Shown: positions 7,623 to 61,166, counted from the first letter of the stretch. The stretch: 64,000 bases of DNA from an uncultured Methanosarcinales archaeon (GCA_964602245.1 CAZRPY010000001.1:152246-216245), one strand, 5' to 3'. Notes: a model not told the origin generated them from the letters alone. Program-made: numbers and translations.

Positions 7623-7623
7623 T

Positions 7624-7779: not shown

Positions 7780-7846
7780 AAGTTTATTACTTAAGAACTT
7801 TGTATATAAGCCTTTCTAAAGCTAGGCTTCAGTAAAAATAAGTTTC

Positions 7847-7965
7847 GTTTTGCCATCGGTTCGCATTTTGCTGTTTCTTATGATGTTGACTTTCCCCGTA
7901 AGGGACTTCCCCCTTGTCAAAGCTAAGTTGCCTTAGAAGAATGCTCGCAAAATTGATGGCAAAAC
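7847..7965 (+). ncRNA. Candidate structured ncRNA or structured repeat element, family copy 1 of 3
   Basis: The terminal inverted repeat is gttttgccatc / gatggcaaaac. The conserved strands are ggttcgcatt and gaatgctcgcaaaatt. The internal hairpin is gttgac-tttcccc-GTAA-ggg-acttccccc-tgtcaa. A TATA-like tgtatataa lies at 7801-7809 and the run ttatttttatc lies downstream. The strand was assigned from the GNRA loop and TATA orientation. Confidence 0.45.
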
Positions 7966-8109
7966 TTATTTTTATCAGAGCTTAAAGCTAAAAAGAGATT
8001 TTATCGCTAAATAAGATAACTAAAGAAATAATAAGTATAAGAATAAAGGAGCTTACTAAAATAACTGATAAAGAAATACCTTGAGCTTTAATGCTACTCA
8101 TATTAGCTA

Positions 8110-8385
8110 TTATGTTGGAATACAACACTTAGTGTTTTGGGTGTCTTTTTGGCCAGCTATAAAGCATGATGCTCCTGGAAGATAGACATTATCCTGTGGA
8201 CAATCTTGACCTGTTGGAACACATTTGCCACCTTTAGCTTGGCAGTCCTCAACGCCAACTCGGAATATAGCAATTCTTCCAGTAAATATAAGCACTAAGA
8301 TAACTAAAACTATTAAGGCTATCGCTGCAACTATAATTACATTTAAAGATAGCTCAGCTCCTCTTTTATTTGATTTTTTAAGCAT
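8110..8385 (-). CDS. Type IV pilin-like protein (91 aa) with class III signal peptide and Cys-rich C-terminus
   Basis: The N-terminus is MLKKSNKRG|AELSLNVIIVAAIALIVLVILVLIF, a textbook archaeal prepilin signal. Confidence 0.7.
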   Translation of the reverse strand: MLKKSNKRGAELSLNVIIVAAIALIVLVILVLIFTGRIAIFRVGVEDCQAKGGKCVPTGQDCPQDNVYLPGASCFIAGQKDTQNTKCCIPT

Positions 8386-16080: not shown

Positions 16081-17327
16081 TTTTTAGGTTTTCCCTCTGT
16101 CTCAAAAACAAAATCTTGATAATCTTCTAGTAGTTCGTCGCTAACTTTTACTGTTAATAACCAATTATTGTTAAATGGTGGAGTGTCTTGCGAGCTAATA
16201 GTGTAAGGAAGGCTTGGATTATAAGAATAACTGAGAGAATCTTCATCAGGGTCATAAGATGACTTTGGATTAGTATTTTGCTGAAATATTTGACTTCCAT
16301 CTCTAATTATAACTAGAGGAGAATTGGCACTGAAAGTAATTTCATCTCCTTCTCTAAGAGTTGGAAGAGCTTGCTCAATTATATAATGAAGGGCAGGATA
16401 CCTGTTTTGAATACTAAACTGGAATGTAAATGGCCTGCCATATAAAGTTGAAGCTGGATCTGTAATGGATAATACATCATCTTTTTTGAATAAATTTCTT
16501 GATAGGCTTACTTCCATTACATCAAAGTTTACCTGGCTTGCATCAAAATTTAATGAATTGGAGTCTGTATCTATTATAGTTCTTGCTAGATTATAAATAA
16601 GTTTAAGCCTAATTTTAAGTGGGACAGAAAAGTCTTCTATTTTTGTTATTTCTTCTCCAGTTACTTTATTAATTATTATTGGAATCTTGGCGTTAGCTAC
16701 TATATGGTTATCTCCAATTATTACTGAACTAGTTACATTTGTATAATTTATATTATAAGTTTTAAATGACTGGAAATTAAGGCATGTGCTGGCATTATTG
16801 TTAATAAAATGCTCTAATTGAGATAAAATAGATATGTTTGAGCCAGAAAGGTCTGGAAGAGAATTTTGACCATAATAACCATTATTAAGGTCTATTGTGG
16901 TGTAAGTTGTGTCAGTATAAGGAAATTCTGGCCATGGATAGCTTGGTGGTTGCCAAAAATATAATTGGCTAATATCTGAGCTTGGGCGTTTAAGGCCATA
17001 GCTAACTTTATAGCCTGAATATAATATGTGGTCATTTCCTAGTTCCTTAGTATCTGGAATAAAGCCACCTTGGGATTTATAGATAAAACTGCCTTGTTTT
17101 CCTATGAAATCTAAGGCTTTAAAAGCTGTTTCTTCAATGCATTTATTTACAAATTCTTTAATACTGGCAATTCCTATAGCTGTTTGCTGGCTTTCTGTAG
17201 ATTGCCTGCCAAGCTTTTTCTCTGTCTTGAAAAGAACTAAATAAAATAGGAATATAAGCATAGCAAAGATAACTATGCCTATTATTATCATTATCGTTAA
17301 TTGAGATTTAGTATAAATCTTTACCAT
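16077..17327 (-). CDS. Membrane-anchored hypothetical protein (416 aa)
   Basis: It has an N-terminal TM helix (LTIMIIIGIVIFAMLIFLFYLVLF). It overlaps the giant gene by 4 nt. Confidence 0.55.
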   Translation of the reverse strand: MVKIYTKSQLTIMIIIGIVIFAMLIFLFYLVLFKTEKKLGRQSTESQQTAIGIASIKEFVNKCIEETAFKALDFIGKQGSFIYKSQGGFIPDTKELGNDHILYSGYKVSYGLKRPSSDISQLYFWQPPSYPWPEFPYTDTTYTTIDLNNGYYGQNSLPDLSGSNISILSQLEHFINNNASTCLNFQSFKTYNINYTNVTSSVIIGDNHIVANAKIPIIINKVTGEEITKIEDFSVPLKIRLKLIYNLARTIIDTDSNSLNFDASQVNFDVMEVSLSRNLFKKDDVLSITDPASTLYGRPFTFQFSIQNRYPALHYIIEQALPTLREGDEITFSANSPLVIIRDGSQIFQQNTNPKSSYDPDEDSLSYSYNPSLPYTISSQDTPPFNNNWLLTVKVSDELLEDYQDFVFETEGKPKK

Positions 17328-17361
17328 TATACCTCCTTTTTTAAGCTATAAGAGTATTTTT

Positions 17362-49185: not shown

Positions 49186-50253
49186 TTATAAATTTATTGT
49201 AATAAGTTCTTTAGTAAATTTAGTTAAGGGAATACAGATATTTTCCAGAAGTACCGTATCTTCAATCCTAATGCCTAATTTATCATTAATATAAATTCCA
49301 GGCTCGATAGTAAATACCATACATTTTTGTAAGATATCATTAGACTTACTAGATAATCTAAAAGTACCTTCATGAACATCTATACCTATTTGATGGCCTA
49401 GGCTATGGATAAAATATTTCTCATATTTTCCAAGAATTTTTCTACAGGCTATTTCTACATCAGAGACTTTAACACCTATTTTTGAATTTTTAATAGACTT
49501 TAATTGGGCTTTTAGAACTAAGTTATAGAGACCTTTTTCCTTTTCGCTAGGCTTGCCAATAAATAGAGTCCTAGTCATGTCAGAGCAGTAATTCTCAAAT
49601 TTTATACCAAAGTCTATTACGCAAAATCCTCTTTTCAATTTTTTCTTAGATGTAATATGGTGTGGCAATGCAGCATTTCTGCCAGAAGCTACAATTGTTT
49701 GAAAAGAATTTAACAAACCTAATTTTTTAGTCTGGCTTTCTATATATTCCATTACAGCAGCTTCTGTTTTGAATTTCTTAAAATTATCAATACATTTCTC
49801 AATTATTTCATCAGTTATTTTGCAAGCCTCTCTAATTTTATTAATTTCTATTTGAGTTTTTATTTTTCTTAAATTAATTAAATAAGTGGATATGTCAACT
49901 ATCTTAGAATTAGGAAAAGTGTTTTTAAATTTCTGATATTCTTTAATTGAAATGCAGTCAAAGTTAATTCCTATTTTTCTAGCCTTGATATAACTGTTTA
50001 ATTGTTCCCAAAGATTGTCTAAAGTAATTATATTCTTAATATAAGACATTCTCTTAGCCTTAGCAAATTCTAATTTAGGGACAATAACTATTGGAGGTTT
50101 ATCTTGATATATTATTAAGCAACAGAAATCACTTAAATCTAAGTTACTAAAATAAGTAATATTACTATCATTTTTGTTTAGATTTGATTTTAATAAAACA
50201 CAAGCATCAATACTTTCTTTAGCTAGAATTTCCTGGAATTCTTTAAGTCTCAT
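49186..50253 (-). CDS. M24-family Xaa-Pro aminopeptidase or prolidase
   Basis: It has the pita-bread fold motif HSLGHQIGIDVHE. Confidence 0.8.
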   Translation of the reverse strand: MRLKEFQEILAKESIDACVLLKSNLNKNDSNITYFSNLDLSDFCCLIIYQDKPPIVIVPKLEFAKAKRMSYIKNIITLDNLWEQLNSYIKARKIGINFDCISIKEYQKFKNTFPNSKIVDISTYLINLRKIKTQIEINKIREACKITDEIIEKCIDNFKKFKTEAAVMEYIESQTKKLGLLNSFQTIVASGRNAALPHHITSKKKLKRGFCVIDFGIKFENYCSDMTRTLFIGKPSEKEKGLYNLVLKAQLKSIKNSKIGVKVSDVEIACRKILGKYEKYFIHSLGHQIGIDVHEGTFRLSSKSNDILQKCMVFTIEPGIYINDKLGIRIEDTVLLENICIPLTKFTKELITINL

Positions 50254-50255
50254 AT

Positions 50256-51332
50256 TTATCTTGTTACTTCAAAGCTTTTAACCCTAGCAAGAAGCTCTTT
50301 AGCCTTTTTATTTTTTTCAAAGTGTTTTCTTACTGGTTCAATTAACTGGTTAATATAGAATGCTACAGTATTCTTTAAATCAATTGGATGCAAGTTACCT
50401 TTAGAATAAACTCTGACAAGATCATTATAGTTATGAAACTCTAAGTTTCCACCAAATTTTTCAGCTCTTTCTATCGTAATTGAGTTGAATTTTTCAAAAA
50501 GTATGTATTTGCAATATTCCAAGATAGGGTTGTCCTCTACTTGTTTTTCTGGACAATAGGCTTTAGCGATCTTTTCCTTGACCTCTTTCTCGGAATCTGT
50601 CATAAAAATGGCAGTTTCTGGCTTGGATTTAGACATTTTGAGGTCAATTGTTCTTTCAATAGCACTCTTTTCTTTACTAGCAGGCTTGCCAAGGCCCATT
50701 AACATATGGTGGCTGACTATCACAGGTTTCCAATATCCAAGTTTTTCTCCAAGTTCCCTAGCTAAAACATTAACTTTCCTTTGATCCATGCCTAGCTGGC
50801 AAATATCAGCTTTTAGATGGAATATGTCAGCTGCTTGCATACAAGGATACAATATTTGAGAGGCTTGCTGTACTTCAGACTCTTGTCTGCCCATTATCTG
50901 CCCAGTTCTTATTATCCTCTGTATAGTAGAATTTCTTGCTATCTGCATTACTTTCTTCCAATAATCCATACTGTTTACTACATCACTTGCCCTTACAAAT
51001 TCTACCTTATCAACATTCATTCCAGACACTTTCCAAACCTCAACAAGATAATCGCTGCATATTTGTATTTTTTCTAGATCACCGCCTAACTTGTTATTGG
51101 CCCAAGCGTGCCAGTCAGCTGCATACATCTTGAAATGGATGCCTGCTTTTACTAGTTTATTGATATTTATAGCCCTAAGAATGCCTTGAGCAATATGAAT
51201 ATTACCAGAAGGCTCAAAACCATCATATGCTATTGGATGAGATTTAGTCTCTATTAAAGTTTTTAGCTCATCTTCTGTAATTATCTCTTCACCTACCTGC
51301 TTTATCAGCTCTAATTTTGTATTTATATCCAT
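50256..51332 (-). CDS. tyrS: Tyrosyl-tRNA synthetase (archaeal type)
   Basis: It has a HIGH-region variant (EPSGNIHIAQ), KMSKS, and a C-terminus (KAYCP...NPILE...EKFGGNLEF...LHPIDLKNTVA) that matches archaeal TyrRS. Confidence 0.85.
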   Translation of the reverse strand: MDINTKLELIKQVGEEIITEDELKTLIETKSHPIAYDGFEPSGNIHIAQGILRAININKLVKAGIHFKMYAADWHAWANNKLGGDLEKIQICSDYLVEVWKVSGMNVDKVEFVRASDVVNSMDYWKKVMQIARNSTIQRIIRTGQIMGRQESEVQQASQILYPCMQAADIFHLKADICQLGMDQRKVNVLARELGEKLGYWKPVIVSHHMLMGLGKPASKEKSAIERTIDLKMSKSKPETAIFMTDSEKEVKEKIAKAYCPEKQVEDNPILEYCKYILFEKFNSITIERAEKFGGNLEFHNYNDLVRVYSKGNLHPIDLKNTVAFYINQLIEPVRKHFEKNKKAKELLARVKSFEVTR

Positions 51333-51405
51333 AAAACTAAGCTTAATTTATTCTTTTAAAAAGGTATCGTAAATTTAGGCTCTGTCATAAATCTCGATTT
51401 GCTCG

Positions 51406-51525
51406 GGGTTAGGTCGGTTCGCATTTTGATGTGAAAACTGTTAAGTTGACATCCCCGTAAGGGACTTCCCCCTGTCAACTGTAATTTTTGTATATTGGAG
51501 AATGCTCACAAAAATGACCTAACCC
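51406..51525 (+). ncRNA. Candidate structured ncRNA or structured repeat element, family copy 2 of 3
   Basis: The closing helix is gggttaggtc / gacctaaccc. The conserved strands are ggttcgcatt and gaatgctcacaaaaat. The internal helix gttgaca/tgtcaac encloses cccGTAAggg. A TATA-like ttttaaaaa lies about 45 nt upstream and the run ctttattta lies downstream. Confidence 0.5.
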
Positions 51526-51552
51526 TTTATTTAGGACAGAGCCGTAAAAGAA

Positions 51553-51581
51553 CACTGGTCACTGGACAGACGCACGTAAGG
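51553..51581 (+). promoter_or_regulatory. Second copy of the motif cactggtcactggaca-N4-cacgtaagg, followed by tatataaag upstream of the cas4-like gene
   Basis: It matches 26974-27002 at 16 of 16 positions, and the following cacgtRagg also matches. Confidence 0.4.
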
Positions 51582-51611
51582 TATATAAAGTAAATTGTTT
51601 TAATTTATGAT

Positions 51612-52472
51612 ATGATAACTGTATCTATGCTCTCTACATATCTATATTGCTCTAGAAAGCTGTACTTACAAGAAGTGCTTAAGCTAGAGGAACCTGAAAG
51701 AGAAGATGCAGTCATAGGCAGTATTAGGCATGAAACCTATGATCTAATAAATAAAAATGAAATGAAAATTGTTACAAGCATACAAAGAAAGGTGCCAAGA
51801 GAAGAATTGCAAGATTTATATAAGGAATATTATTCAGAGCATTTAAGAAATGCTATTAGAGCTAATAAAGATAGGTTAAGGACTTTAGTAATTAATTCTG
51901 GAGAGATTTTTAAGAGGCTATGGCCTTTAGTATTGGAGGAAAGCATTACAAGAGCTAATAGTATTTTTGACTTTATTGAGACACACCTTATTTTTGGAGA
52001 TAAACTTTGGGAAATGCTCACTCCAAAAATAGTTTCTGAGTTTAAGATAATATCTGCTAAACTTGAGCTTAAGGGCATAATAGATCAAGTAGAGCACTGG
52101 CAAACTGGTTTAGTTCCTATTGAGATTAAGACAGGAAACGCCCCATTAGAAGGAATATGGTCTGGGCATAAAATCCAATTAATAGCCTATGCAATGCTAC
52201 TTGAGGATTATTATAGCAAGCCAGTAAAAGAGGGATTTGTTGTTTACCTTGGATCAAAAGAGAAAAGGCATTTAGCCATAAATCCTTTTATGAGATATGA
52301 ATTGAAAGAGCTTATAGGCCAAGTAAAGACAGTCTTGACAAGCAAGGAGCTTCCAGATTTTACAACATCTAAAAAGAAGTGTGAGAAATGTGGGCTTAGA
52401 GATAGATGTTATAATAAAGAATTTATGGATAATACCATGAATAATCTCATAGAACTGTCACAAACTATATAG
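51612..52472 (+). CDS. Cas4-like / RecB-family PD-(D/E)xK nuclease with a 4-Cys Fe-S cluster signature; no CRISPR array or other cas genes nearby
   Basis: It has an N-terminal Cys (YLYCSRKLYLQ), the nuclease motifs IIDQVEH...VPIEIKTGN and QLIAYAML, and a C-terminal CEKCGLRDRC. Confidence 0.65.
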   Translation: MITVSMLSTYLYCSRKLYLQEVLKLEEPEREDAVIGSIRHETYDLINKNEMKIVTSIQRKVPREELQDLYKEYYSEHLRNAIRANKDRLRTLVINSGEIFKRLWPLVLEESITRANSIFDFIETHLIFGDKLWEMLTPKIVSEFKIISAKLELKGIIDQVEHWQTGLVPIEIKTGNAPLEGIWSGHKIQLIAYAMLLEDYYSKPVKEGFVVYLGSKEKRHLAINPFMRYELKELIGQVKTVLTSKELPDFTTSKKKCEKCGLRDRCYNKEFMDNTMNNLIELSQTI

Positions 52473-52552
52473 TGGTATATTTTTAAACCAGTTTATACAT
52501 TCTTTATAGAAACATTTAAATAAAGAAAATCATAGATTTTCTAATTTAAATG

Positions 52553-52671
52553 TCCGAAAATGCTTACATTTTCGATACAAAGGGACTTTGTCCCTAGTCT
52601 GGGAAATTAAAATTTCCGATACAACGAAAACCATTGGTTTTCGAGTCTCGAATTACGTTGTAATTCGATAC
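52553..52671. repeat. Array of five different perfect palindromes with alternating conserved 3-prime flanks (GATAC / AGTCT)
   Basis: The palindromes in order are: ccgaaaatg-ctta-cattttcg; ggga-ctttg-tccc; ggaaatt-aa-aatttcc; cgaaaacca-ttggttttcg; cgaattac-gtt-gtaattcg. They are followed alternately by (c)gatac and agtct. Confidence 0.6.
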
Positions 52672-52729
52672 ATTTAAATATTACTTACTACTAGATTTAG
52701 AATAGACTTTTGAATTAAGGAGTGATAAA

Positions 52730-53035
52730 ATGCCAACAACTAAAGAAGAAATGCCAAAAATGATGCAGGAAGGCCAAGAGGCTGACAAGAAGTTCTCTAA
52801 GCAATTAATAGGCAAGACAGTTGTTTCCAAGGCTGGAAAAAGGTTTGGGGAGGTAGGAGATATAATTTTTGAGGCTAAATCTGGAGAGCTAATACATATG
52901 GTATTAAGCAATCCCACTTCTTATACAGAAAAGCTAGAACTGGAGAAAGACAAGGATGGACATATTCTGATACCATTTAGTTCTGTAATAGCTATGGGAG
53001 ATTTTATGGTTATATCTGAAGAGGATATTATTTAA
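52730..53035 (+). CDS. PRC-barrel domain protein
   Basis: It is 101 aa with a GKRFGEVGDIIFEAKSGELIHMVL core. An aaggagtga RBS lies upstream. Confidence 0.6.
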   Translation: MPTTKEEMPKMMQEGQEADKKFSKQLIGKTVVSKAGKRFGEVGDIIFEAKSGELIHMVLSNPTSYTEKLELEKDKDGHILIPFSSVIAMGDFMVISEEDII

Positions 53036-53107
53036 TTGGCATTATTTTGATTGTTCTCTTTATATACTGCGCAAAACTATTTAAAGCAATATAAATTCTT
53101 TCAATCT

Positions 53108-54064
53108 ATGGAAAGTGCTTTGTGGACAGAGAAATATAGGCCTAAAGAATTTAATGAAATAAAGGGGCAAGTAGAAATAATTAAGAGAGTGAAGGCCTTT
53201 GTTGAAAAGAAAAATATGCCTCACCTGCTATTTACCGGACCTGCTGGAACAGGTAAGACCAGCCTTTCTATTGTAATAGCAAAAAAATTGTTTGAAGAGC
53301 AGTGGAGGCAGAACTTTTTAGAGCTTAACGCGTCAGACGAGAGAGGCATAGATGTTATTAGAAATAAAGTTAAAGATTTTGCAAGAACTAAGCCAATAGG
53401 TAATGTGCCTTTTAAGATAATTTATCTGGATGAATGCGATGCATTAACAAGAGATGCACAACAGGCTTTAAGAAGGACGATGGAAAATTATACAGCTACT
53501 ACTAGATTTATTCTTTCTGCAAATTATTCTTCAAAGATAATTGAACCAATACAGAGCAGATGCGCAGTGTTCAGGTTTAAGCATCTAGATAAGAAAGATG
53601 TTTACGAGATTATAGATAAGATAGCAATTAACGAGGATTTTCATATAACAGAAACTGCAAAAGAGGCTTTATTTGAGGTGACAGAAGGTGATCTGAGGAA
53701 ATTAGAGAATATACTTCAGAGCTCAGCATCTATATCAAATAAAATTGACGAAAATATGATTTATGCGATTGCAAATACAGCTAAGCCTAAGGATATAATT
53801 GAGATATTAAAATTAGCATTAAAAAATGATTTTATGGCCGCTAAGACAAAATTGCTCGATGTTATGCTGACTAATGGACTTTCAGGGGCTGATATTATTA
53901 AACAAATACAGAAAGAAATCTTAAATTTGCCAATAGAGACAAAAGATAAAATGTCTTTAATAGACAAATGCGGGGAGATAGAATTTAGGATGTCAGAGGG
54001 TGCAGACGAGTTTATACAACTAGAAGCTCTTTTAAGCCAATTTGCACTAATAGGAAGCAAATAG
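53108..54064 (+). CDS. rfcS: Replication factor C small subunit
   Basis: It has Walker A (LLFTGPAGTGKTS), DECD and the SRC motif. The track ORF starts at 53051, and the start is likely the internal MESALWTEKYRP. Confidence 0.9.
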   Translation: MESALWTEKYRPKEFNEIKGQVEIIKRVKAFVEKKNMPHLLFTGPAGTGKTSLSIVIAKKLFEEQWRQNFLELNASDERGIDVIRNKVKDFARTKPIGNVPFKIIYLDECDALTRDAQQALRRTMENYTATTRFILSANYSSKIIEPIQSRCAVFRFKHLDKKDVYEIIDKIAINEDFHITETAKEALFEVTEGDLRKLENILQSSASISNKIDENMIYAIANTAKPKDIIEILKLALKNDFMAAKTKLLDVMLTNGLSGADIIKQIQKEILNLPIETKDKMSLIDKCGEIEFRMSEGADEFIQLEALLSQFALIGSK

Positions 54065-54093: not shown

Positions 54094-55050
54094 TTAATCT
54101 TCTTCTTTCTTTATTCTTAACTGTTTATGTATAGAATCCTTATAATCATAATCTAGAGTAATAGCAACTTCTTTTGTAAACAAGTCATCTTTAGATAATT
54201 TGGCATTGTCTTTTAACCTGCAGATAATAGAACCCTTGCCTGTTGTGTCAAGCCTTAGCTCACCTGATTTGCCCCTGCCACTGCAATCCCATTTATCGCT
54301 ATCAGATATTTCAAACTCTAAAACTGGTATTCTTATGTCAAAAGCAGTTCCCTGCTTGGTCACTCTGCCCTGGCCAACATTTTCTACCTCAAACTCTAGG
54401 CTTATTAGGCCTGTTCCTGACGGCCTTTCCCTTACACCCCTGACTTGAATTGGAGCAGAAGAAGAGAAAACTGTCTTTTCCTCATCAACCTCGCAAAATG
54501 TCTTGTCTTTTAAATCACCTTTAAAACAGACTTTTGTAACAGTTGCAAATGTCTTGTAATGATAAACAACATTGCCTACAACAGTGATATCAACACTATT
54601 GCCTAGGATTTTTGGTTGGTATCTAGCATTATCATCACCCGGAGTAAAGTCAAGGACCTCTTCATCACCTTCTTCATTTACATCAGAAACCTTTTCTATT
54701 TTATCTGAATTTTGAAGTTCTCTATTTGGTATGCCTGAAAAATCAGCAAGATTAATACCTGATAAGCTAACTCTCACATCACCTGGCTCTACATCTTGCT
54801 CCCCTTTGTTCTTTAAAACTACTTCTATTGGGAAACTTTCTGAGGAAAAGATTTCTTCTATATCTGCTTTATCTAATATTCCAAATTCCCTGAACTCAGC
54901 TACAATACCCTTTTGGCCTCCTATGAAAGGAGATTTTCCAGATTTTGGCTCTTGTTGATCAGTTGGAGTGCAAGCAGCAATAGCAAATATAGAGATTATT
55001 AGGTTAATTAACAAGTACTGGTTAAATTTTATTAATTTTATTTTTACCAT
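54094..55050 (-). CDS. Lipoprotein-like secreted protein, paralog 3 of 3
   Basis: It has a signal plus Cys (IAACTPTD). It shares the motifs CEVDEEK...SSAPIQVRGVRE, EFEVENVGQGRV and ITLDYDYKDSIHKQLRIK with the two upstream paralogs. Confidence 0.6.
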   Translation of the reverse strand: MVKIKLIKFNQYLLINLIISIFAIAACTPTDQQEPKSGKSPFIGGQKGIVAEFREFGILDKADIEEIFSSESFPIEVVLKNKGEQDVEPGDVRVSLSGINLADFSGIPNRELQNSDKIEKVSDVNEEGDEEVLDFTPGDDNARYQPKILGNSVDITVVGNVVYHYKTFATVTKVCFKGDLKDKTFCEVDEEKTVFSSSAPIQVRGVRERPSGTGLISLEFEVENVGQGRVTKQGTAFDIRIPVLEFEISDSDKWDCSGRGKSGELRLDTTGKGSIICRLKDNAKLSKDDLFTKEVAITLDYDYKDSIHKQLRIKKEED

Positions 55051-55126
55051 CCGGTCACTTATCTAATACTTAGTAGAGCATTATTTAAACTTTTCTTATT
55101 ATAAATGCTATTTATTTATCTTTGAT

Positions 55127-56071
55127 TTATTTTAGATTAATAATTTCGAACTGTTTCTGAACAGAGCTAGAATAGCCATAGCTTAGCTCAATATTAAGAG
55201 GAGTTGTATAAGATGTCTGTTGTTTGTCAATTGGAAGGTTAAAGCTGCAGAATATAAAACCTTGTCCATTTATTAGTATAACATCCTTGTCTAAACTTGG
55301 CTCACATCTATCTAGAGTTAGGCTAGGTATTGAAACAGAATTTACATGGACTTTGTTTATGTCTAGGATGTCAATGCCAAATGGGCATTTGTCCAAAACA
55401 GCATCTGGCTTCATAACCTTTCCATCTCCAACATTTCTTATAAATATCCTGAAAAACACTTTATTATTGCCAACTTCTTCCTCAACTCTAGTAACAGCAA
55501 TAGGAGCTCCTTGGCTGGTTAAACTAACATCTCTTACCTCACAAACCTTATCTTTTTTGACTACAGAAAATGGGTCAGGGTCAATGCATACTATAGGATT
55601 GGCTTGTGTTTTGTAGCTATAACAAGAGGTAACTAGGATATTAGCCACATATTTATCAGCAGATGATATAGGAACACTGGCTTTAGCTATATAGCTTTTA
55701 ATGTCAATAGAGCCTTCAGGGCTTGTTTGACTTTTGCCCCTGAAAAGACCACTTAGAGTTAGATCTACGCTAGTTTCACTGCCATCCTGCCAATTGCCTT
55801 GCAAGGCAGCTTTTTCAAAACCAGAAATAAATAACCTTGCAAATTCTGAATCATGAGCACCTTTGTTCTCTGCATGGACATTAATAATTATATCCTGATC
55901 TTGGAAAACTCTTGGAGGAGGAGAGTTTTGAAGAAACTTAATTACTATGCCTTCTATACCCTTATGAAAATCGATATCTTTTGTGGTTAAGGTTCTTGTG
56001 TCCTTTTTAGAGCAACTTGATAACACTACAAGGAGTATTATGGCTAGAGTAATAACAGTAATTTTTTTCAT
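55127..56071 (-). CDS. Lipoprotein-like secreted protein, paralog 2 of 3
   Basis: It has a signal plus Cys (VLSSCSKKD). It shares TSCYSYKTQANPIVCIDPDPF, KVCEVRDVSLTSQGAPIAVTRVEEEV and FIRNVGDGKV with the other paralogs. Confidence 0.6.
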   Translation of the reverse strand: MKKITVITLAIILLVVLSSCSKKDTRTLTTKDIDFHKGIEGIVIKFLQNSPPPRVFQDQDIIINVHAENKGAHDSEFARLFISGFEKAALQGNWQDGSETSVDLTLSGLFRGKSQTSPEGSIDIKSYIAKASVPISSADKYVANILVTSCYSYKTQANPIVCIDPDPFSVVKKDKVCEVRDVSLTSQGAPIAVTRVEEEVGNNKVFFRIFIRNVGDGKVMKPDAVLDKCPFGIDILDINKVHVNSVSIPSLTLDRCEPSLDKDVILINGQGFIFCSFNLPIDKQQTSYTTPLNIELSYGYSSSVQKQFEIINLK

Positions 56072-56187
56072 TTTGATTAATGTAGGTAACTCTTTTATAT
56101 CATATATAAAAGTTTCTACTCTGCTGTAGTTTTGATTATAGTATATTGACTATATTATATAAAATCTAGGTCCTTTGTTTCTTTCAT

Positions 56188-57228
56188 TTATTTCTTTGGA
56201 ACAGGCACTTTAATTAAAACTTCTTTTGATATAGACTCTGTGTAGCCGTATTCAGCAAGTATCCTTAGTTTTGTAACATAATTGCCAGCATTAGCAGGAA
56301 TTTCTCCTAGATATCTGCAAGTTACTGTTGCAACCTTGTCCTTAAATCTTGCATAGCCAAACAAGCCTTCTTCTTCGAAAGGATCTTTAATTAGCTCGCT
56401 TCTCTTTGGCAAGCAGTCTAAACGATTAATTTCTTTACCTGCAATGAAAGCGCTTACCCTTACAATATTAAAATTGTTTAAATCAGAAGATGATTTTTGG
56501 GAGCAAACCTCTTGATATTTTTGATATCTTATCACTTCTCCCTTGCCAACGTTCCTTAAGGTAATAACAAAATATGGAGAAATGCCTTTTCCACTAGGCA
56601 GCATCTGTACTTCTACTTTTTCTATAGAAACAGGGGCACCTTGACCACTGCTAGATGCTATATCTTTTACTTTGCAAACTTTTGCTATTGGCTTTGTATT
56701 AAATATGTCTGTGTCAATGCAGACTTCTGGAGTAAATTCTGTTTGGTAGTCATAGCAAGCAGTTGCTATAATAGCACTTTTAAATTGCTCTGCCTGGGGG
56801 TTTAATAGGGATGGTTCTGCAAGTACGCTAAAGGTCATTATATCACCATTAGGGTTTTTTGCACTTTTACCTTCTAAAAAAGAGTTTTCACTACTAGCTA
56901 TTCTGAAGAGATCTTCACCATAATATATAGTAGAATCTAAATTTTCCTTAACAATACCTTTATAACCATCAAAATTAAAAGCAATTACACCGTAAGCCTT
57001 TTCTGCACCCTTATTTCTCATCTCTAAACCTATTGGAACTCTTGTTTTTTCAGTATAATAAATCTCTTTTGGAGGTGCATTTTCTAGAAATTTGAATTCT
57101 AAGCCTTGTACTCCTGTCTTGAAATTAGTAATTACTTTTGTTTGGACATCTGCTCTTTTACAGCTAATTAATAGTAAAGAGATTATAATAAGAAAAATGT
57201 ACATTCGTTTAGTTTTAGTCTTTTGCAT
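56188..57228 (-). CDS. Lipoprotein-like secreted protein, paralog 1 of 3
   Basis: It has a signal plus Cys (LLISCKRAD). It shares TACYDYQTEFTPEVCIDTDIF, KVCKVKDIASSSGQGAPVSIEKVEVQ and LRNVGKGEV with the other paralogs. Confidence 0.6.
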   Translation of the reverse strand: MQKTKTKRMYIFLIIISLLLISCKRADVQTKVITNFKTGVQGLEFKFLENAPPKEIYYTEKTRVPIGLEMRNKGAEKAYGVIAFNFDGYKGIVKENLDSTIYYGEDLFRIASSENSFLEGKSAKNPNGDIMTFSVLAEPSLLNPQAEQFKSAIIATACYDYQTEFTPEVCIDTDIFNTKPIAKVCKVKDIASSSGQGAPVSIEKVEVQMLPSGKGISPYFVITLRNVGKGEVIRYQKYQEVCSQKSSSDLNNFNIVRVSAFIAGKEINRLDCLPKRSELIKDPFEEEGLFGYARFKDKVATVTCRYLGEIPANAGNYVTKLRILAEYGYTESISKEVLIKVPVPKK

Positions 57229-57229
57229 T

Positions 57230-59773
57230 TTAAGGTGTTAATTTAGCTACACTAATTAAAGTATTATACCTATCCCAAATTTCATCTGCATAATTTATGT
57301 TTGTCTTGCCCCATCCATTGTAGGCTCTTAGACCTGCTTTATCAATAGTGTAATATATCAGAGTTGTTGTTGGTGCATAGGTATACTCACAAAACCTATC
57401 TTTATTGCATTTTCCATCGCATTTAAAGCCAAGACAAGAATCCGGATAGGGATGAACGCACTCTGAGGGTGAGGAGCAAGAATCTTTGAATTTCCCATAT
57501 TCCTGATTAAATATTTTTAATCCACAATCTATGTTTGATAAAGGATTTTTCTCCCTGTCAGCTGGGCATGTTGCTATTGTTGCTGTATTTTTCTTTGAGA
57601 CTTTCATAAGCCCAAACCATTCATCACCAGGGTCTAGGCTGTAAGCATTTTCATTGCATCCAGATTCCTGCACTATAATTGAAAGAGTAAATAAAGGATC
57701 TATACCATTTTTTTTTGATGACTGAATAATACTTTCTGCATGTTTTTTGCATGGCTCTTTTAGAGAACTTTGTATTGCAGTAGTAGCATCTATTATCTTT
57801 CTTAATCTCTCATGGCTTATTTCTCCAACGCTTTTTGTAGAGTCAATAGCAATAGGCTGCGCTTTTCTGCTAATATAACCAGATGGTAGTCTATTAACAG
57901 TAATGCTTATCTGCTCTGTTATTTTATACTTATAATTAATTTTTGCTCTAAAATATTTAATTGCAATGGGAGTTGCTCCAAGGAATTCCTCTGAGTTGTC
58001 TACGTTTAAATTACATAATATTGTAGTAGGAGTTTTAGCTTCTTTTACCCTTGCAGGATCTCTTTCTAGTTTATATGTCTTATAATTATCATCTTTGGCA
58101 ACCTCTTCACTAAAATCCTTATTCTCTACTAATTTAACATTATAATTTGGGCCACAAGCACTTTTACCTTCTGTTATTGACATTTGCTTTGGCACTTGCA
58201 AATAAATCTCTTTTATTTCAATTACTTGGCCTTTCCAGTTATTGTCTAAAGTAATGCCAAGCCTGGGGGTTATTGTTTCTATGCCTTTTCCAATGCCTAC
58301 TATCTCACTTGAAGTTCCCATGCCAATCATTATTGGACCGTTAGTGTAAACAGCCACAGGCTTCTTTTCAGTAATTCCAAACCTGTCTAAAGGATCAATG
58401 TTTTCTCTTAATAGTTCTCTTAATCTCTGTCTGTCCATAAAATAAGCTTTGACATAACCATATGTAGGAAAGTTCTCAAACTCAGATGAGAGCTTTATAA
58501 CATGGCTGCCTTCTTTTAACTCTTTCATATTACATTCTAGGTCAAAAACATCAAAGCTTTCAACAGTAAACTTATTTCTAGCTACTGTGCCTATTTTATC
58601 AGGGCTATTATCATCTCCTTCATAACAACTAACTGCTATAGTAATTGGAATACTTGGATCAATAGTTCTAGCCCTTAAAACTCCATATACAACAATAGTA
58701 TCGCCTGAATAATATTTAGGATCAGCAGCCTTAACTTTTTCTATATAAACACCTAAAGGCTCTTTTACGTTTCTGTCAACATTGCCTGTGTAATAGTCTC
58801 CTCCAACTGTATAAAGTACTGCTCTATCAAAGCTTTTCTTAACTTGCCCCGGGATGCTTTTGATTGTTGTAACAACATTGCTTAAACCTTTTGTAAAAGA
58901 ATTTCCAAGTTTTGACATTCCATCTATAACATCAATCTTTACTGGCAGGTTTTCAAGGCCACTAAAAGCTTCAGCTGCTGTATCCCAACCTATGACAGCC
59001 CAAAAAATAATTAATGCTGCAAGACCAAGTTTTAATACCCTAGTTCCACCAACACCAAATGTTAGGTAAATTATCCATAACGGTCCAAAAACTGCAATTA
59101 GGATTACTTGAAATATAATATTGTTTGCTAGAAAACTTAAGCCAGGTATATTAGGTAAGTATGGGAAGCCAAAAGCTATAGCAGAAATAATAAAAGGTAT
59201 CCTTAAATCTTCTATATGGAATCGTCCTATCTCGCTTTTAAAAACACCAAATCCTGCCCATAATGTTATAATTGTATAAAATAGCATCCTTATTCTAACA
59301 GGTAGTTGGAAAAAAGTGGAGAGATCTAATAAATAAACAACGATAGTCATGAAAAAAAACGCATTCAAACCAGTTAATGCTCTGGCACCAGCCCTTACTC
59401 CTGAGGCAGTTGCACCAGCAGCAGCACTGCCTATTGTAAGACCGGTCATTAAGCCTCTTCCAGTGCCTCTGGCAGCTCTTAAAGCTTTACTGCCAACATT
59501 TTGCCATCTTCTAGCTTTTTCTTGAGATGCTTGCAAATTTCCCATGCCTGCCATCTGCCTTTGAAGACTGGCTTCATATTGTTGCTCAAATAAATTCATT
59601 TGACTCATTCGCATTTGCTGTTCTCTCTGAGCCTGTGCCATAGCTGCGTTTTGCTGGCTAGAGGATTTCCTTAAATTCTTTACAGAATTAGCCATATTTC
59701 TACTGTATTTAGCAACTATACTTCCAGCACTAGCAAGCCCTCTTCCAATACCAGCAATTATAGGAACTACCAT
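57230..59773 (-). CDS. Large polytopic membrane protein (847 aa) with a Gly/Gln-rich N-terminal region and a C-terminal lytic transglycosylase (SLT, lysozyme-like) domain
   Basis: The C-terminus has IVQESGCNENAYS...FGLMKV, which matches the SLT family-1 motifs ES-x-F-x-P-x-A-x-S and GLMQ. There are about 5-6 TM helices after a Gly/Ala/Gln-rich N-terminal stretch. Confidence 0.65.
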   Translation of the reverse strand: MVVPIIAGIGRGLASAGSIVAKYSRNMANSVKNLRKSSSQQNAAMAQAQREQQMRMSQMNLFEQQYEASLQRQMAGMGNLQASQEKARRWQNVGSKALRAARGTGRGLMTGLTIGSAAAGATASGVRAGARALTGLNAFFFMTIVVYLLDLSTFFQLPVRIRMLFYTIITLWAGFGVFKSEIGRFHIEDLRIPFIISAIAFGFPYLPNIPGLSFLANNIIFQVILIAVFGPLWIIYLTFGVGGTRVLKLGLAALIIFWAVIGWDTAAEAFSGLENLPVKIDVIDGMSKLGNSFTKGLSNVVTTIKSIPGQVKKSFDRAVLYTVGGDYYTGNVDRNVKEPLGVYIEKVKAADPKYYSGDTIVVYGVLRARTIDPSIPITIAVSCYEGDDNSPDKIGTVARNKFTVESFDVFDLECNMKELKEGSHVIKLSSEFENFPTYGYVKAYFMDRQRLRELLRENIDPLDRFGITEKKPVAVYTNGPIMIGMGTSSEIVGIGKGIETITPRLGITLDNNWKGQVIEIKEIYLQVPKQMSITEGKSACGPNYNVKLVENKDFSEEVAKDDNYKTYKLERDPARVKEAKTPTTILCNLNVDNSEEFLGATPIAIKYFRAKINYKYKITEQISITVNRLPSGYISRKAQPIAIDSTKSVGEISHERLRKIIDATTAIQSSLKEPCKKHAESIIQSSKKNGIDPLFTLSIIVQESGCNENAYSLDPGDEWFGLMKVSKKNTATIATCPADREKNPLSNIDCGLKIFNQEYGKFKDSCSSPSECVHPYPDSCLGFKCDGKCNKDRFCEYTYAPTTTLIYYTIDKAGLRAYNGWGKTNINYADEIWDRYNTLISVAKLTP

Positions 59774-59860
59774 TTGACCTCTTTTATTAAATAATTAAGA
59801 AAATAGCATTTAAACCTTACTAATTCTCGGGCTCATTGAAAAGTTCCTCGCATTTGCTCG

Positions 59861-59978
59861 GTTGCCATCGGTTCGCATTGTCATGTTGCTACAGGTAACA
59901 GGAATTCCTACTTGCAATCTCCCTTCCTGTCTATGTTTAATTTGAAGATGCTCACAAATTGATGGCAACTACAAACTT
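59861..59978 (+). ncRNA. Candidate structured ncRNA or structured repeat element, family copy 3 of 3 (most diverged)
   Basis: The closing helix is gttgccatc / gatggcaac. The conserved strands are ggttcgcatt and gatgctcacaaatt. A TATA-like atttaaa lies about 50 nt upstream and the run acttttc lies downstream. The GNRA hairpin module of copies 1 and 2 is replaced by other sequence. Confidence 0.4.
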
Positions 59979-59996
59979 TTCAATAACGCCTAATTC

Positions 59997-61166
59997 CTAG
60001 TTACTTTTCAGGCTTACATTCAATTCAACAATATTTAATGTTTCTTTTGGAGTTACTTCAATGAAGTTATTGCCCTCTTCAACAAAACTGTCAATATTCT
60101 TAGTAAATACTGCCCTTGTCTGCTCTACCCTAAACTTATGGCCATTTACACTGATATCAGCGGATTTGCTAGATTTATCATCAATGAAATGCATAGCTAA
60201 AATTACGTCTTTCTTATTATTTTCTACATTGGAGAAATCAGCAGCAGTTATTTCAAAGTAATAGATTATAGATTTAGTTTCTTTTAAGTCAAGATCGAGC
60301 TTTATCTGCTCAATACTATAACTGCCCTTGCTTGACCTGAATACTATGGTATTAGTTCCCTCATTTAAAAGCTCAGGGTTAATATCTAAGGCAACAGTCT
60401 CTTCGCATATAGGAACTGAGGAATAGACATTCTTATTATTTATAGCTAATTCTAAATTTCCAATCTCTTGTTTGCCACAGAATGGAATGAACTTTAGCTG
60501 AGGTCTTTCTATATTCTGAGCCTCAGAGCTGGTAAGGACAAAAGAGTTCTGGCTTTTCTGCCTGCTTAAGTCAGTTATCTCTCCAATAATCTTTACATCC
60601 TCTAAACTATATTCATTTGTTCTCCAGAACTGCCATCCAACACTGCCAACTGAGAATTCTAATGTGTTAGAATCTTTGAGTAAACTTTTCTTGAATTCAA
60701 TTGGCTCAATGTTTTGAGATGTTATTTCATATTGGTAAATAAGTTGACCATTTAGCTTAATTATTAATTCCCCTTTATATTTCTGTACTGTAAATGAGAG
60801 GAAAACATTGTCTGTGTTCTCAAGATTAGGGATATTAAACTCTACTGTTTTATCTCTTTTGTCAAACACACCATTTCTTATGCTGAAAGGAGAGAATTTT
60901 GCTAAAACTTTTGATTCAACTGCTTCAATTAAGTTTACATTTGATATATCGATACTTTTTTTATCTTCAAGCTGGAAGGATAATGTTCCAGGAAATTCTT
61001 CCAATAATACTGAAACATCTACTTTCTTCACGGATTTGCTAGGAGTAGAAGGCTTACCACTATCTTCAAGAAGAGCTTCTCTTTCCTCAGGAGGCAATAT
61101 AACAATGTAAAGTATGATTATTAAAAGTATAATTAAGACTAATGTATTGGCTTGTCCTTTCCTCAT
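59997..61166 (-). CDS. Membrane-anchored extracellular hypothetical protein (389 aa)
   Basis: It has an N-terminal TM helix (LVLIILLIIILYIVIL). Confidence 0.5.
   Translation of the reverse strand: MRKGQANTLVLIILLIIILYIVILPPEEREALLEDSGKPSTPSKSVKKVDVSVLLEEFPGTLSFQLEDKKSIDISNVNLIEAVESKVLAKFSPFSIRNGVFDKRDKTVEFNIPNLENTDNVFLSFTVQKYKGELIIKLNGQLIYQYEITSQNIEPIEFKKSLLKDSNTLEFSVGSVGWQFWRTNEYSLEDVKIIGEITDLSRQKSQNSFVLTSSEAQNIERPQLKFIPFCGKQEIGNLELAINNKNVYSSVPICEETVALDINPELLNEGTNTIVFRSSKGSYSIEQIKLDLDLKETKSIIYYFEITAADFSNVENNKKDVILAMHFIDDKSSKSADISVNGHKFRVEQTRAVFTKNIDSFVEEGNNFIEVTPKETLNIVELNVSLKSN

What the first reader, a model, noticed from the sequence alone, without database searches (positions are those of the whole stretch)
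54094..61166. Second secreted locus: membrane protein with C-terminal lytic-transglycosylase domain followed by three tandem paralogous lipoprotein-like genes
The 847-aa protein has a Gly/Gln/Ala-rich N-terminal region, 5 to 6 TM helices, a large extracytoplasmic domain and a C-terminal SLT domain (QESGCNENAYS...GLMKV). This architecture resembles peptidoglycan-piercing components of bacterial secretion or conjugation systems, or phage tape-measure proteins, yet the genome is archaeal. It is followed by three paralogs of 314 to 346 aa with lipobox-like Cys and shared motifs (CYxYxT...VCIDxDxF, SQGAPIxVxRVE, xRNVGxGxV). The locus also includes an upstream 389-aa anchored protein and copy 3 of the structured element. 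This may be a murein-degrading host- or prey-interaction module.
Basis: partly seen in the sequence, partly recalled or inferred. Interest (0 to 1): 0.7.

Follow-up and report, generated by a model that had tools for sequence, protein, structure and literature searches.

The report
Conserved archaeal surface operon carrying murein hydrolase
A five-gene operon found at the same chromosomal spot across Woesearchaeota encodes a membrane protein that displays an interchangeable bacterial-cell-wall-cutting enzyme, three lipid-anchored paralogues and one anchored partner, which points to a dedicated surface apparatus for acting on bacterial cell walls.

Summary
All five ORFs exist as described. The 847-aa protein has an Ala/Gly/Gln-rich N-terminus, about five TM helices, a beta-rich ectodomain and a C-terminal SLT domain (Pfam 36 bits, cutoff 21.3). 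The catalytic Glu (E703) is invariant in the 14 aligned orthologous SLT tails and aligns with the ES motif of MltC. The three downstream genes are true paralogues with canonical lipoboxes.

New findings:
- The cluster p389–CORE–PARA1–PARA2–PARA3 is syntenic between Pelota and RFC-small in about 50 species-level Woesearchaeota genomes, so it is vertically inherited and not mobile.
- The CORE family has at least 1,400 clusters at 50% identity.
- Its C-terminal module is swappable. SLT, glucosaminidase, amidase_2, amidase_3, NlpC/P60, M23 or M15 occupy the same position in roughly half of members; the rest carry non-enzymatic tails or none.
- The PARA proteins are tandem beta-sandwiches in three ancient orthologous groups.
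- No ATPase, conjugation or phage genes are nearby, so the secretion, conjugation and tape-measure analogies fail.
- The "structured element" is a MITE-like insertion with target-site duplications, not part of the system.

Best reading: a membrane-tethered, contact-dependent surface complex that cleaves peptidoglycan of bacteria.

The parts
59997..61166 (-). p389: N-terminally anchored 389-aa surface protein. First gene of the cluster and its most conserved member.
   Evidence: ORF. The N-terminus is conserved across orthologues as K[GA]Q, then a hydrophobic helix, then LPPEEREALL. Mean column identity is 49% over 26 orthologues. It lies immediately upstream of CORE in 36 of 39 loci with room. 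No Pfam, PDB or PHROGs relatives were found. hhalign shows no relation to PARA or CORE.
59829..59989 (-). It is flanked by the duplicated target GAATTAG at 59990-59996 and 59820-59826. It is not a functional part of the cluster.
   Evidence: It folds at -54 kcal/mol with z -3.2. Two more copies lie at 7812-7996 and 51360-51552, and one lies in L003 at a different intergenic spot. At least 47 true copies occur in metagenomes. The ends are terminal inverted repeats GGC.../...GCC, abutted by 9-10 bp direct repeats; repeats of 8 nt or more occur in 17 of 40 copies against 6% of controls. The element is absent from this position in L001 and L003. There is no Rfam match.
59808..59818 (-). BRE/TATA-like box (AAGGTTTAAAT) about 35 nt upstream of the 847-aa gene's ATG.
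   Evidence: The sequence was read. The block TAGTAAGGTTTAAATGCT is conserved upstream of the orthologous gene in L001 and L003, which lack the insertion. Promoter function is inferred from the archaeal BRE/TATA consensus and was not tested.
59399..59773 (-). CORE protein residues 1-125: low-complexity Ala/Gly/Gln/Ser-rich, basic N-terminal region with a long predicted helix (17-89). Presumed cytoplasmic.
   Evidence: Composition and AF2 secondary structure. This region is poorly conserved among orthologues. The topology is inferred.
58961..59395 (-). CORE protein residues 127-271: polytopic membrane domain of about 5 TM helices.
   Evidence: AF2 helices at 127-152, 159-179, 187-208, 213-240 and 245-271, with pLDDT 64-74. 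Hydropathy profile. No Pfam family matches.
57866..58804 (-). CORE ectodomain, residues 324-636. This is the family-defining two-beta-sandwich module (GDYYTGxVD ... YTNGP ... YxY).
   Evidence: It is the conserved block in alignments A1, A3 and A5. AF2 pLDDT is 85-93 and the fold is all-beta. The family has 1402 clusters at 50% identity with E<=1e-3. Foldseek returns only generic tandem Ig-like folds, largely the same PDB entries as for PARA. hhalign to PARA gives E 4.5e-4 with the motifs in the same order but probability of only 33%.
57233..57826 (-). C-terminal SLT (GH23-type lytic transglycosylase) domain, residues 650-847. Catalytic E703, G721-L-M-K724 and A817-Y-N-G820. A Cys-rich insert separates the lobes.
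   Evidence: Pfam PF01464, E 5.5e-9, above the cutoff. The Glu is invariant in 14 of 14 aligned orthologous tails. A profile of those tails hits MltC (2.6e-7), Slt70 (8e-6) and EtgA (9e-6), with the Glu aligned to their ES motif. Foldseek hits MltF.
56188..57228 (-). PARA1: 346-aa lipobox protein (LISC) with a tandem beta-sandwich fold. Its start codon lies 1 nt after the CORE stop codon.
   Evidence: ORF. AF2 pLDDT 90.3 and pTM 0.84. The lipobox is conserved. It forms its own orthologous group. The CORE-PARA1 gap has a median of 1 nt and is <=10 nt in 30 of 42 loci.
55127..56071 (-). PARA2: 314-aa lipobox protein (LSSC), a paralogue of PARA1.
   Evidence: BLASTP to PARA1 gives E 1e-30. hhalign of the PARA1 group against the PARA2 group gives E 5e-68. 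All 27 of 27 best cross-genome hits fall at position 2.
54094..55050 (-). PARA3: 318-aa lipobox protein (IAAC). The most divergent paralogue, with a PF(I/L)GG motif after the Cys.
   Evidence: BLASTP to PARA2 gives E 4e-9. hhalign to the PARA1 and PARA2 groups gives E 2.5e-37 and 5.8e-43. All 27 of 27 best cross-genome hits fall at position 3. N-terminal motif seen.

Best explanation
The locus is a vertically inherited, order-wide Woesearchaeota operon for a cell-surface complex. In this genome the complex carries a membrane-tethered lytic transglycosylase aimed at bacterial peptidoglycan.

Proposed components and roles:
- The 847-aa CORE protein is held in the archaeal membrane by about five helices. 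It projects a two-beta-sandwich ectodomain, and at its tip sits an exchangeable 'warhead'. Here the warhead is an SLT domain with a complete catalytic motif set except Q->K in GLMQ.
- Three lipid-anchored paralogues (PARA1-3) are tandem beta-sandwiches, possibly distantly related to the CORE ectodomain. They are proposed to assemble with CORE into a hetero-oligomeric stalk or scaffold.
- The N-terminally anchored, highly conserved p389 is a fifth partner, possibly a glycan-binding one.

Proposed action: on contact with a bacterium, the tethered enzyme cuts MurNAc-GlcNAc bonds locally. This opens the sacculus for attachment, feeding or killing.

Shown: domain identities, catalytic-residue conservation, lipoboxes, paralogy, synteny and warhead swapping.
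Inferred: complex formation, topology, a bacterial target and contact-dependent use.
For: 1. SLT identity and active site. The Pfam hit is above the cutoff. The Glu is invariant in 14 of 14 aligned orthologous tails and aligns to the ES motif of MltC and Slt70. There is a fold match to MltF.
2. Selection for peptidoglycan cleavage as such. At the same C-terminal position, orthologues carry SLT, Glucosaminidase, Amidase_2, Amidase_3, NLPC_P60, Peptidase_M23 or Peptidase_M15_4. By family definition, M15/VanY enzymes and MurNAc-L-Ala amidases act on D-Ala- and MurNAc-containing murein, which archaea do not make.
3. Surface location. The PARA proteins have conserved lipoboxes. All Cys residues of CORE lie after the TM region. 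Lipoproteins and the lipidation enzyme AliA are reported for DPANN (PMC12462473).
4. One functional unit. Synteny counts are p389 upstream in 36/39 loci, three PARA genes downstream in 26/33, Pelota in 31/34 and RFC in 21/28. The CORE-PARA1 spacing has a median of 1 nt. Sampling anchored on PARA recovers the same cluster. The three PARA positions are ancient, non-interchangeable orthologous groups.
5. Not mobile, phage or secretion-related. The flanks are housekeeping genes and no ATPases are present. PHROGs gives no tape-measure match.
6. A second murein-directed enzyme (Peptidase_M15/VanY, ORF 1492-2592) lies in the same window.
7. The literature independently proposes bacterial cell-wall attack or attachment for SLT proteins of Woese- and Pacearchaeota (PMC8204110, PMC9723730).
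Against: - Roughly half of CORE orthologues have no recognisable hydrolase, and some have no C-terminal tail at all. Yet they keep the whole operon. The conserved function of the scaffold is therefore something broader than murein cleavage, and the enzyme is an add-on.
- No physical interaction among the five proteins has been shown. The CORE-PARA homology is only suggestive (hhalign probability 8-33%).
- The window protein has GLMK instead of GLMQ, which is unique among the 14 aligned tails.
- No host is known for this lineage, and published proposals for Woesearchaeota also include archaeal (methanogen) partners.
- The folds of PARA and CORE are generic Ig-like sandwiches and give no functional clue.
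Confidence: 0.55

Rival explanations
1. General envelope scaffold. The five proteins form a structural or adhesive cell-envelope complex, for example an S-layer anchor or a cell-cell adhesion module, and this is what Woesearchaeota actually need. The peptidoglycan hydrolase is an accessory used to scavenge murein fragments (amino sugars, D-amino acids) from necromass or nearby bacteria. It is not used to breach a living partner.
For: - The operon is conserved at a housekeeping locus even where CORE has no enzymatic tail.
- p389, which has no enzymatic signature, is the most conserved member.
- The folds are generic Ig-like sandwiches typical of surface layers and adhesins.
- An extra M15/VanY peptidase in the window would fit muropeptide salvage.
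- Muropeptide-trimming enzymes are reported as abundant in Pacearchaeota (PMC11537232).
Against: - Lytic transglycosylases, amidases, M23 and NlpC/P60 enzymes act on polymeric sacculi. Tethering one to the producer's membrane limits it to material in direct contact.
- Seven hydrolase classes recruited to one position argue for strong selection on cell-wall cleavage in about half of lineages.
- No transporter or muropeptide catabolic gene lies in the cluster.
Confidence: 0.25
2. Peptidoglycan-piercing accessory of a secretion, conjugation or pilus machine, or a domesticated phage tape-measure or tail-lysin module.
For: Membrane-anchored SLT domains are typical of VirB1-like and T3SS-associated enzymes, and EtgA is among the profile hits. 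The long helical, low-complexity N-terminus loosely recalls tape-measure proteins. p389 carries a K[GA]Q motif reminiscent of class III (prepilin) signals.
Against: - No VirB4/VirD4/PilB-type ATPase, secretin, platform, capsid, portal or tail gene lies within about 10 kb in the window or in about 50 loci. The neighbours are Pelota, RFC, TyrRS, Cas4-like and PRC-barrel genes.
- PHROGs returns only one unannotated family, over the SLT region.
- Fixed chromosomal synteny across genomes that share only 25-40% identity is not the behaviour of mobile elements.
- In most orthologues, polar residues separate the K[GA]Q motif of p389 from the hydrophobic stretch, which is atypical for prepilins.
Confidence: 0.05
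3. Autolysin-type remodelling complex. Woesearchaeota would build a murein-like wall of their own, and this housekeeping operon would be its remodelling or division hydrolase complex.
For: The position is fixed and housekeeping-like, and the cluster is nearly universal. The diversity of hydrolase classes mirrors bacterial autolysin sets.
Against: - No murein synthesis genes were seen in the window.
- No report of murein synthesis in Woesearchaeota was found in the literature searched.
- About half of orthologues lack any hydrolase, which would be odd for an essential autolysin.
Confidence: 0.03

Closest known systems
Bacterial membrane-bound family-1 lytic transglycosylases (MltC, MltE/EmtA, MltF, Slt70; Pfam PF01464, CAZy GH23)
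   Same: The catalytic fold and motif set match (ES with catalytic Glu, GxMQ, AYNxG). A profile of the archaeal tails hits MltC, Slt70 and MltE, and the model matches MltF. The enzyme is tethered to the producer's membrane.
   Different: - The producer is an archaeon without murein.
- Anchoring is through a polytopic N-terminal domain plus a 310-residue beta-sandwich spacer, not a lipid or a single helix.
- A Cys-rich insert of about 50-70 residues splits the domain.
- The enzyme module is exchangeable with six other hydrolase families in orthologues.
Large extracellular SLT-domain proteins of Woesearchaeota and Pacearchaeota (fam00969 in PMC8204110; GH23 proteins in PMC9723730)
   Same: The lineage, the domain and the proposed role (binding or degrading bacterial cell walls) are the same. 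This protein may belong to, or overlap with, what those surveys counted.
   Different: In the passages read, those reports describe proteins by their SLT domain only, some up to 3,000 aa. Those passages do not mention the conserved TM-plus-beta-sandwich CORE family, the five-gene operon, its fixed position, the lipoprotein paralogues or the warhead swapping. Identity with fam00969 was not tested.
Secreted archaeal peptidoglycan hydrolases that kill bacteria (PMC12352652)
   Same: Archaeal enzymes directed at bacterial murein, interpreted as cross-domain antagonism.
   Different: Those are described as produced weapons that kill bacteria. This one is fixed to the membrane within a multi-protein operon, which implies contact dependence.
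VirB1-, EtgA- and PrgK-type hydrolases of type III and type IV secretion systems
   Same: SLT domains that open the sacculus locally for a surface machine. EtgA is a profile hit.
   Different: No secretion-system genes accompany the cluster. The target sacculus would belong to another cell, not to the producer.
Archaeal lipobox lipoproteins (AliA/AliB pathway, PMC12462473)
   Same: PARA1-3 carry canonical [LVI][ASTVI][GAS]C lipoboxes after a Sec-type signal. DPANN are reported to be rich in predicted lipoproteins and to encode AliA.
   Different: Lipidation has not been shown for any DPANN protein. The PARA family has no characterised relatives.

Membership tests
SLT / family-1 lytic transglycosylase (PF01464, GH23) | Sequence match to the family model above the curated threshold | tested here: met
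   PF01464 gives E 5.5e-9 and 36 bits against a cutoff of 21.3, over residues 681-764. Only profile positions 2-85 of 117 are covered, because a Cys-rich insert separates the last motif.
SLT / family-1 lytic transglycosylase (PF01464, GH23) | Catalytic Glu of the ES motif present and conserved | tested here: met
   E703 (QESGC) is invariant in 14 of 14 aligned orthologous tails. It is present in 18 of 19 tails found by jackhmmer; the exception is a truncated domain. It aligns to the ES motif of MltC in the profile-PDB alignment.
SLT / family-1 lytic transglycosylase (PF01464, GH23) | Motifs II (GLMQ) and III (AYNxG) | tested here: met
   G50 and M52 are invariant and Q53 is present in 13 of 14 tails. 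The window protein has GLMK724, the single exception. A817-Y-N-G820 is present, with Y and G invariant.
SLT / family-1 lytic transglycosylase (PF01464, GH23) | Lysozyme-like fold | tested here: met
   Foldseek of the AF2 model hits MltF structures (5aa4, 5aa1, 4owd) at E 5e-4 to 1e-3 with probability 0.93-0.98. Domain pLDDT is 65-92.
SLT / family-1 lytic transglycosylase (PF01464, GH23) | Murein-cleaving activity that forms 1,6-anhydroMurNAc | not testable with these tools
   Needs a zymogram or muropeptide analysis of the recombinant domain.
Lipobox lipoproteins (PARA1-3) | Signal peptide ending in [LVI][ASTVI][GAS]C | tested here: met
   The window proteins have LISC, LSSC and IAAC. The Cys is at least 90% conserved in 87 sequences. 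The box is visible in essentially all PARA N-termini listed.
Lipobox lipoproteins (PARA1-3) | Lipid modification of the Cys, and lipidation enzyme (AliA) in the genome | not tested
   Only 64 kb of the genome is available. AliA is reported in DPANN generally (PMC12462473).
T4SS/T3SS-associated peptidoglycan hydrolase (VirB1-like) | Encoded within or next to secretion-system genes (VirB4/VirD4-type ATPases, channel components) | tested here: not met
   In the window and in about 50 loci with up to 10 kb of flank, the neighbours are Pelota, RFC-small, TyrRS, a Cas4-like gene, a PRC-barrel gene and CoA ligase.
Phage tape-measure or tail-associated lysin | Match to tape-measure or tail families, and location in a tail-gene module | tested here: not met
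   PHROGs returns only an unannotated family over the SLT region. There are no phage genes nearby, and the chromosomal synteny is fixed.
Archaeal type IV pilin-like proteins (class III signal), considered for p389 | [KR][GA] cleavage motif followed directly by the hydrophobic helix | tested here: inconclusive
   K[GA]Q is conserved. In the window protein it is followed at once by ANTLVLIILL. In most orthologues 4-9 small or polar residues intervene. No prepilin peptidase or pilus ATPase was seen among the ORFs scanned.
MITE (miniature inverted-repeat transposable element), for the 'structured element' | Terminal inverted repeats, target-site duplications, multiple copies and no coding capacity | tested here: met
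   - TIRs of the form GGCxxxx.../...xxxxGCC form the outer stem.
- Direct repeats of 9-10 bp abut the ends. Repeats of 8 nt or more occur in 17 of 40 copies against 6% of swapped-flank controls.
- There are 3 copies in the window and at least 47 in a truncated metagenome scan.
- The element is about 160-175 nt.
- No autonomous parent element was identified.

The most novel reading that the evidence does not exclude
The five-gene operon encodes the conserved core of a cross-domain host-contact organelle. An ancestral Woesearchaeota surface complex would present an interchangeable murein-cleaving head to the wall of a bacterial partner. That would mean the order as a whole is, or was ancestrally, tied to bacteria rather than archaea. 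It would also give the first defined gene set for DPANN-bacterium attachment or feeding.
Probability: 0.3. Interest if true: 0.8.

Novelty: new variant of a known kind. Interest (0 to 1): 0.6.

Why it matters
Woesearchaeota are among the most widespread uncultured archaea. Their partners and way of life are unknown. SLT genes have been cited as a hint of bacterial hosts or prey, but only gene by gene.

This analysis shows three things:
- The hydrolase is the exchangeable head of a conserved membrane protein.
- That protein sits in an order-wide five-gene surface operon at a fixed chromosomal position.
- At least seven murein-hydrolase families have been recruited to the same site.

This turns a loose hint into a defined, testable apparatus. 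The operon now offers candidate antigens for localisation and candidate domains for enzymology. It also offers a marker locus, and the warhead type could be compared with co-occurring bacteria across environments.

Tried and rejected
- A single-sequence phmmer search of the SLT tail against PDB found nothing. A profile of 14 tails was needed.
- Profile searches of PARA, CORE and p389 against PDB sequences found nothing significant.
- NCBIfam gave only noise.
- p389 is not related to PARA or CORE by hhalign.
- Enlarging the CORE and PARA alignments did not improve the CORE-PARA hhalign signal (E 1e-3 to 2e-2, probability 2-17%). That homology stays a hypothesis.
- Long PARA and p389 variants carry no enzymatic domains.
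- The window's own protein is not on record in the contig index, so the source assembly could not be named.
- The word-index homologue search badly under-reports the CORE family (14 plus 7 hits). The exhaustive search found 1,402 clusters.
- For the structured element I first considered a K-turn-containing ncRNA or a cis-regulatory leader. There is no Rfam match. It lies upstream of the downstream gene's promoter box, not in its 5' UTR. Target-site duplications then identified it as a MITE-like insertion.
- About 60% of the metagenome pattern hits were chance matches in GC-rich bacterial DNA and were discarded.

Full report
**What is there**

The window is a low-GC (about 33%) archaeal chromosome segment. 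It carries PolD, MCM, Cdc6, RFC-small, Pelota and an archaeal TyrRS. Homologues of the five proteins come only from genomes labelled Woesearchaeota, Nanoarchaeota or Nanoarchaeia.

**The 847-aa protein (CORE)**

- Pfam finds an SLT domain above the curated cutoff (PF01464, residues 681-764, E 5.5e-9, 36 bits against 21.3).
- An AlphaFold2 model built on 21 homologues (mean pLDDT 71) shows four regions:
  - a long N-terminal helix in a low-complexity Ala/Gly/Gln/Ser-rich region;
  - about five hydrophobic helices between residues 127 and 271;
  - a confidently predicted all-beta ectodomain (residues about 340-630, pLDDT 85-93);
  - an alpha-rich C-terminal domain.
- Hydropathy and composition agree with this picture. 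All 14 cysteines lie after residue 383, as expected for an extracytoplasmic region.
- Foldseek matches the beta region to generic tandem Ig-like modules and the C-terminal domain to the lytic transglycosylase MltF.

**Is the SLT domain catalytically credible?**

- Nineteen of 46 species-level orthologues carry a related SLT tail.
- In an alignment of 14 of these tails the Glu of the ES motif (E703 here) is invariant. So are the G and M of GxMQ and the Y and G of AYNG.
- The window protein is the only one of the 14 with K instead of Q in GLMQ.
- A profile of the tails hits MltC (E 2.6e-7), Slt70 (8e-6), the T3SS enzyme EtgA (9e-6) and MltE. The invariant Glu aligns to the ES motif of MltC.

**The three downstream genes (PARA1-3)**

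- They have canonical lipoboxes, and these are conserved in essentially all relatives examined.
- AlphaFold2 gives a high-confidence model of two beta-sandwiches (pLDDT 90.3, pTM 0.84).
- PDB and viral fold searches return only generic Ig-like, adhesin or DUF11-type matches. There is no sequence relative in Pfam, NCBIfam or the PDB.
- Across 27 genomes with three copies, every protein's best cross-genome hit is the copy at the same position (27/27/27). The triplication is therefore ancient and the copies are not interchangeable.

**Is CORE a fourth paralogue?**

- The CORE ectodomain aligns to PARA over about 165 columns with the characteristic motifs in the same order. These are AxFNFxT ~ ACYxYxT, NxWxGKI ~ NxGxGxV, and a C-terminal YxY ~ YGY.
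- Statistical support is weak: E 4.5e-4 with probability 33%, and lower with larger alignments.
- The two models also retrieve largely the same PDB entries.
- I treat this as a plausible but unproven fourth paralogue.

**p389**

- It has a conserved N-terminus: K[GA]Q, a hydrophobic helix, then LPPEEREALL.
- It is the most conserved protein of the cluster (49% mean column identity).
- It has no detectable relatives and no relation to PARA or CORE.
- Its resemblance to class III (prepilin) signals is inconclusive.

**Genomic context**

- Scanning one genome per species recovered 50 loci.
- Local HMM annotation shows the same arrangement almost everywhere the contig is long enough: Pelota on the - strand, then p389-CORE-PARA-PARA-PARA on the + strand, then RFC-small on the - strand.
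- Counts:

| Feature | Loci with feature / loci with room |
|---|---|
| p389 upstream of CORE | 36/39 |
| Pelota upstream | 31/34 |
| Three PARA genes downstream | 26/33 |
| RFC-small downstream | 21/28 |

- The CORE stop and PARA1 start are a median of 1 nt apart.
- Sampling anchored on distant PARA homologues finds the same cluster. It even finds the same extended neighbourhood as in the window (RFC, PRC-barrel, Cas4-like, TyrRS, M24 peptidase).
- The CORE ectodomain family is large: 1,402 clusters at 50% identity, 752 of them at E<=1e-30.
- This is the signature of a vertically inherited core operon, not of a mobile, phage or conjugative module.
- No ATPase or machinery gene accompanies the cluster. 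PHROGs gives no tape-measure match.

**The C-terminal module is exchangeable**

- Among the 46 species-level orthologues, Pfam finds SLT (17), Glucosaminidase (2), Peptidase_M15_4 (1), NLPC_P60 (1) and fn3-type modules.
- Among 59 further family representatives, Pfam finds SLT (11), Amidase_2 (2), Amidase_3 (1), Glucosaminidase (2), NLPC_P60 (1) and Peptidase_M23 (1). It also finds PKD, crystallin-like and other non-enzymatic modules.
- Some members end right after the ectodomain.
- Seven distinct murein-hydrolase families at one position mean that selection acts on peptidoglycan cleavage itself. Several of these enzymes (MurNAc-L-Ala amidases, D-Ala-specific M15) are specific for bacterial murein by family definition.
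- Long variants of PARA and p389 carry no enzymes. The head therefore belongs to CORE specifically.
- The operon persists without any hydrolase in about half of members. The scaffold's basic role must therefore be broader.

**Most likely mechanism**

- The locus encodes a membrane-anchored surface complex made of CORE, three lipoproteins of similar fold and p389. In this genome it presents a tethered lytic transglycosylase to bacterial peptidoglycan on contact.
- The components, their conservation and their enzymology-relevant motifs are shown.
- Assembly, topology and the bacterial target are inferred.
- The main rival is a general envelope or adhesion scaffold with the hydrolase serving murein scavenging. 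The secretion, conjugation, tape-measure and autolysin readings are poorly supported.

**Relation to the literature**

- SLT-domain proteins in Woese- and Pacearchaeota, and the idea that they bind or degrade bacterial walls, are already published (PMC8204110, PMC9723730; see also PMC12352652 and PMC11537232).
- I did not find the following described in the passages read:
  - the CORE family architecture;
  - the five-gene operon and its fixed position;
  - the three ancient lipoprotein paralogues;
  - the warhead swapping.
- DPANN are reported to be rich in predicted lipoproteins and to encode AliA (PMC12462473). This fits the PARA lipoboxes.

**The 'structured element'**

- The 223-nt gap between p389 and CORE holds a hairpin-rich element of about 160 nt.
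- Two more copies lie in the window, at 7812-7996 and 51360-51552. One lies in the closest relative, but between PARA2 and PARA3.
- There is no Rfam match.
- A metagenome pattern scan returned 120 stretches, of which 47 are true relatives by nhmmer.
- The outer stem is a pair of terminal inverted repeats (GGC.../...GCC) that falls into subfamilies.
- Direct repeats of 9-10 bp abut the ends. Repeats of 8 nt or more occur in 17 of 40 copies against 6% of swapped-flank controls.
- Here the duplicated target is GAATTAG (59990-59996 and 59820-59826).
- The conserved BRE/TATA-like block AAGGTTTAAAT follows the element. The same block is found upstream of CORE in relatives that lack the element.
- The element is therefore a MITE-like insertion and not part of the system.

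**Verdict**

- The domain-level finding is a known kind.
- The conserved operon with a modular murein-hydrolase head is a new variant worth experimental follow-up.

Noticed in passing
window 7812-7996 (-), 51360-51552 (-), 59829-59989 (-); L003 10616-10830 (+): A family of MITE-like elements of about 160-175 nt, with GGC.../...GCC terminal inverted repeats, 9-10 bp target-site duplications and a conserved interior (UUUGUGAGCAU ... AAUGCGAACCGA). A helix inside it differs between subfamilies but stays paired (GCCAUC/GAUGGC against UUAGGUC/GACCUAA). At least 47 copies occur in a truncated metagenome scan, there is no Rfam match, and no autonomous parent was found. In the window each copy sits just upstream of the BRE/TATA-like box of the next gene on the same strand.
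   Followed up: yes
window 1492-2592 (-): A 366-aa ORF with Peptidase_M15 / VanY (D-Ala-D-Ala peptidase) domains (E 7e-11 and 1e-9). This is a second murein-directed enzyme in the same 64 kb of an archaeal genome.
   Followed up: no
window 11197-20052 (-): Three large adjacent ORFs (1627, 416 and 896 aa). The largest has Big_13 and thrombospondin type 3 repeats. The other two have no Pfam match.
   Followed up: no
window 6375-7661 (-) and 8110-8384 (-): The 428-aa ORF starts MKNKILSNKKAQ..., the same KKAQ-type N-terminus as the p389 family. A small ORF nearby starts MLKKSNKRGAELSLNVIIVAAIALIV, a typical archaeal pilin-like class III signal. This region may encode pilin-like surface proteins.
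   Followed up: no
window 49186-54064; L054 10834-15311: The neighbourhood beyond the cluster (RFC-small, PRC-barrel protein, Cas4-like nuclease, TyrRS, M24 peptidase) is also syntenic with a distant relative. A large block around the operon is therefore conserved.
   Followed up: partly
L003 and L039 (contigs CAZBGH010000022.1 and CAZBGH010000083.1, same MAG): One MAG carries two CORE-PARA clusters, with 67% and 29% identity to the window's ectodomain. This is either a second paralogous cluster in one genome or a mixed bin.
   Followed up: no
L001 9859-10032 and 10001-12250: In the GCA_016188215.1 relative, the N-terminus of the CORE gene appears to be split into a called 57-aa ORF plus the main ORF. 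The conserved promoter-like box lies upstream of the small ORF. This looks like a frameshift or a start-site miscall.
   Followed up: no
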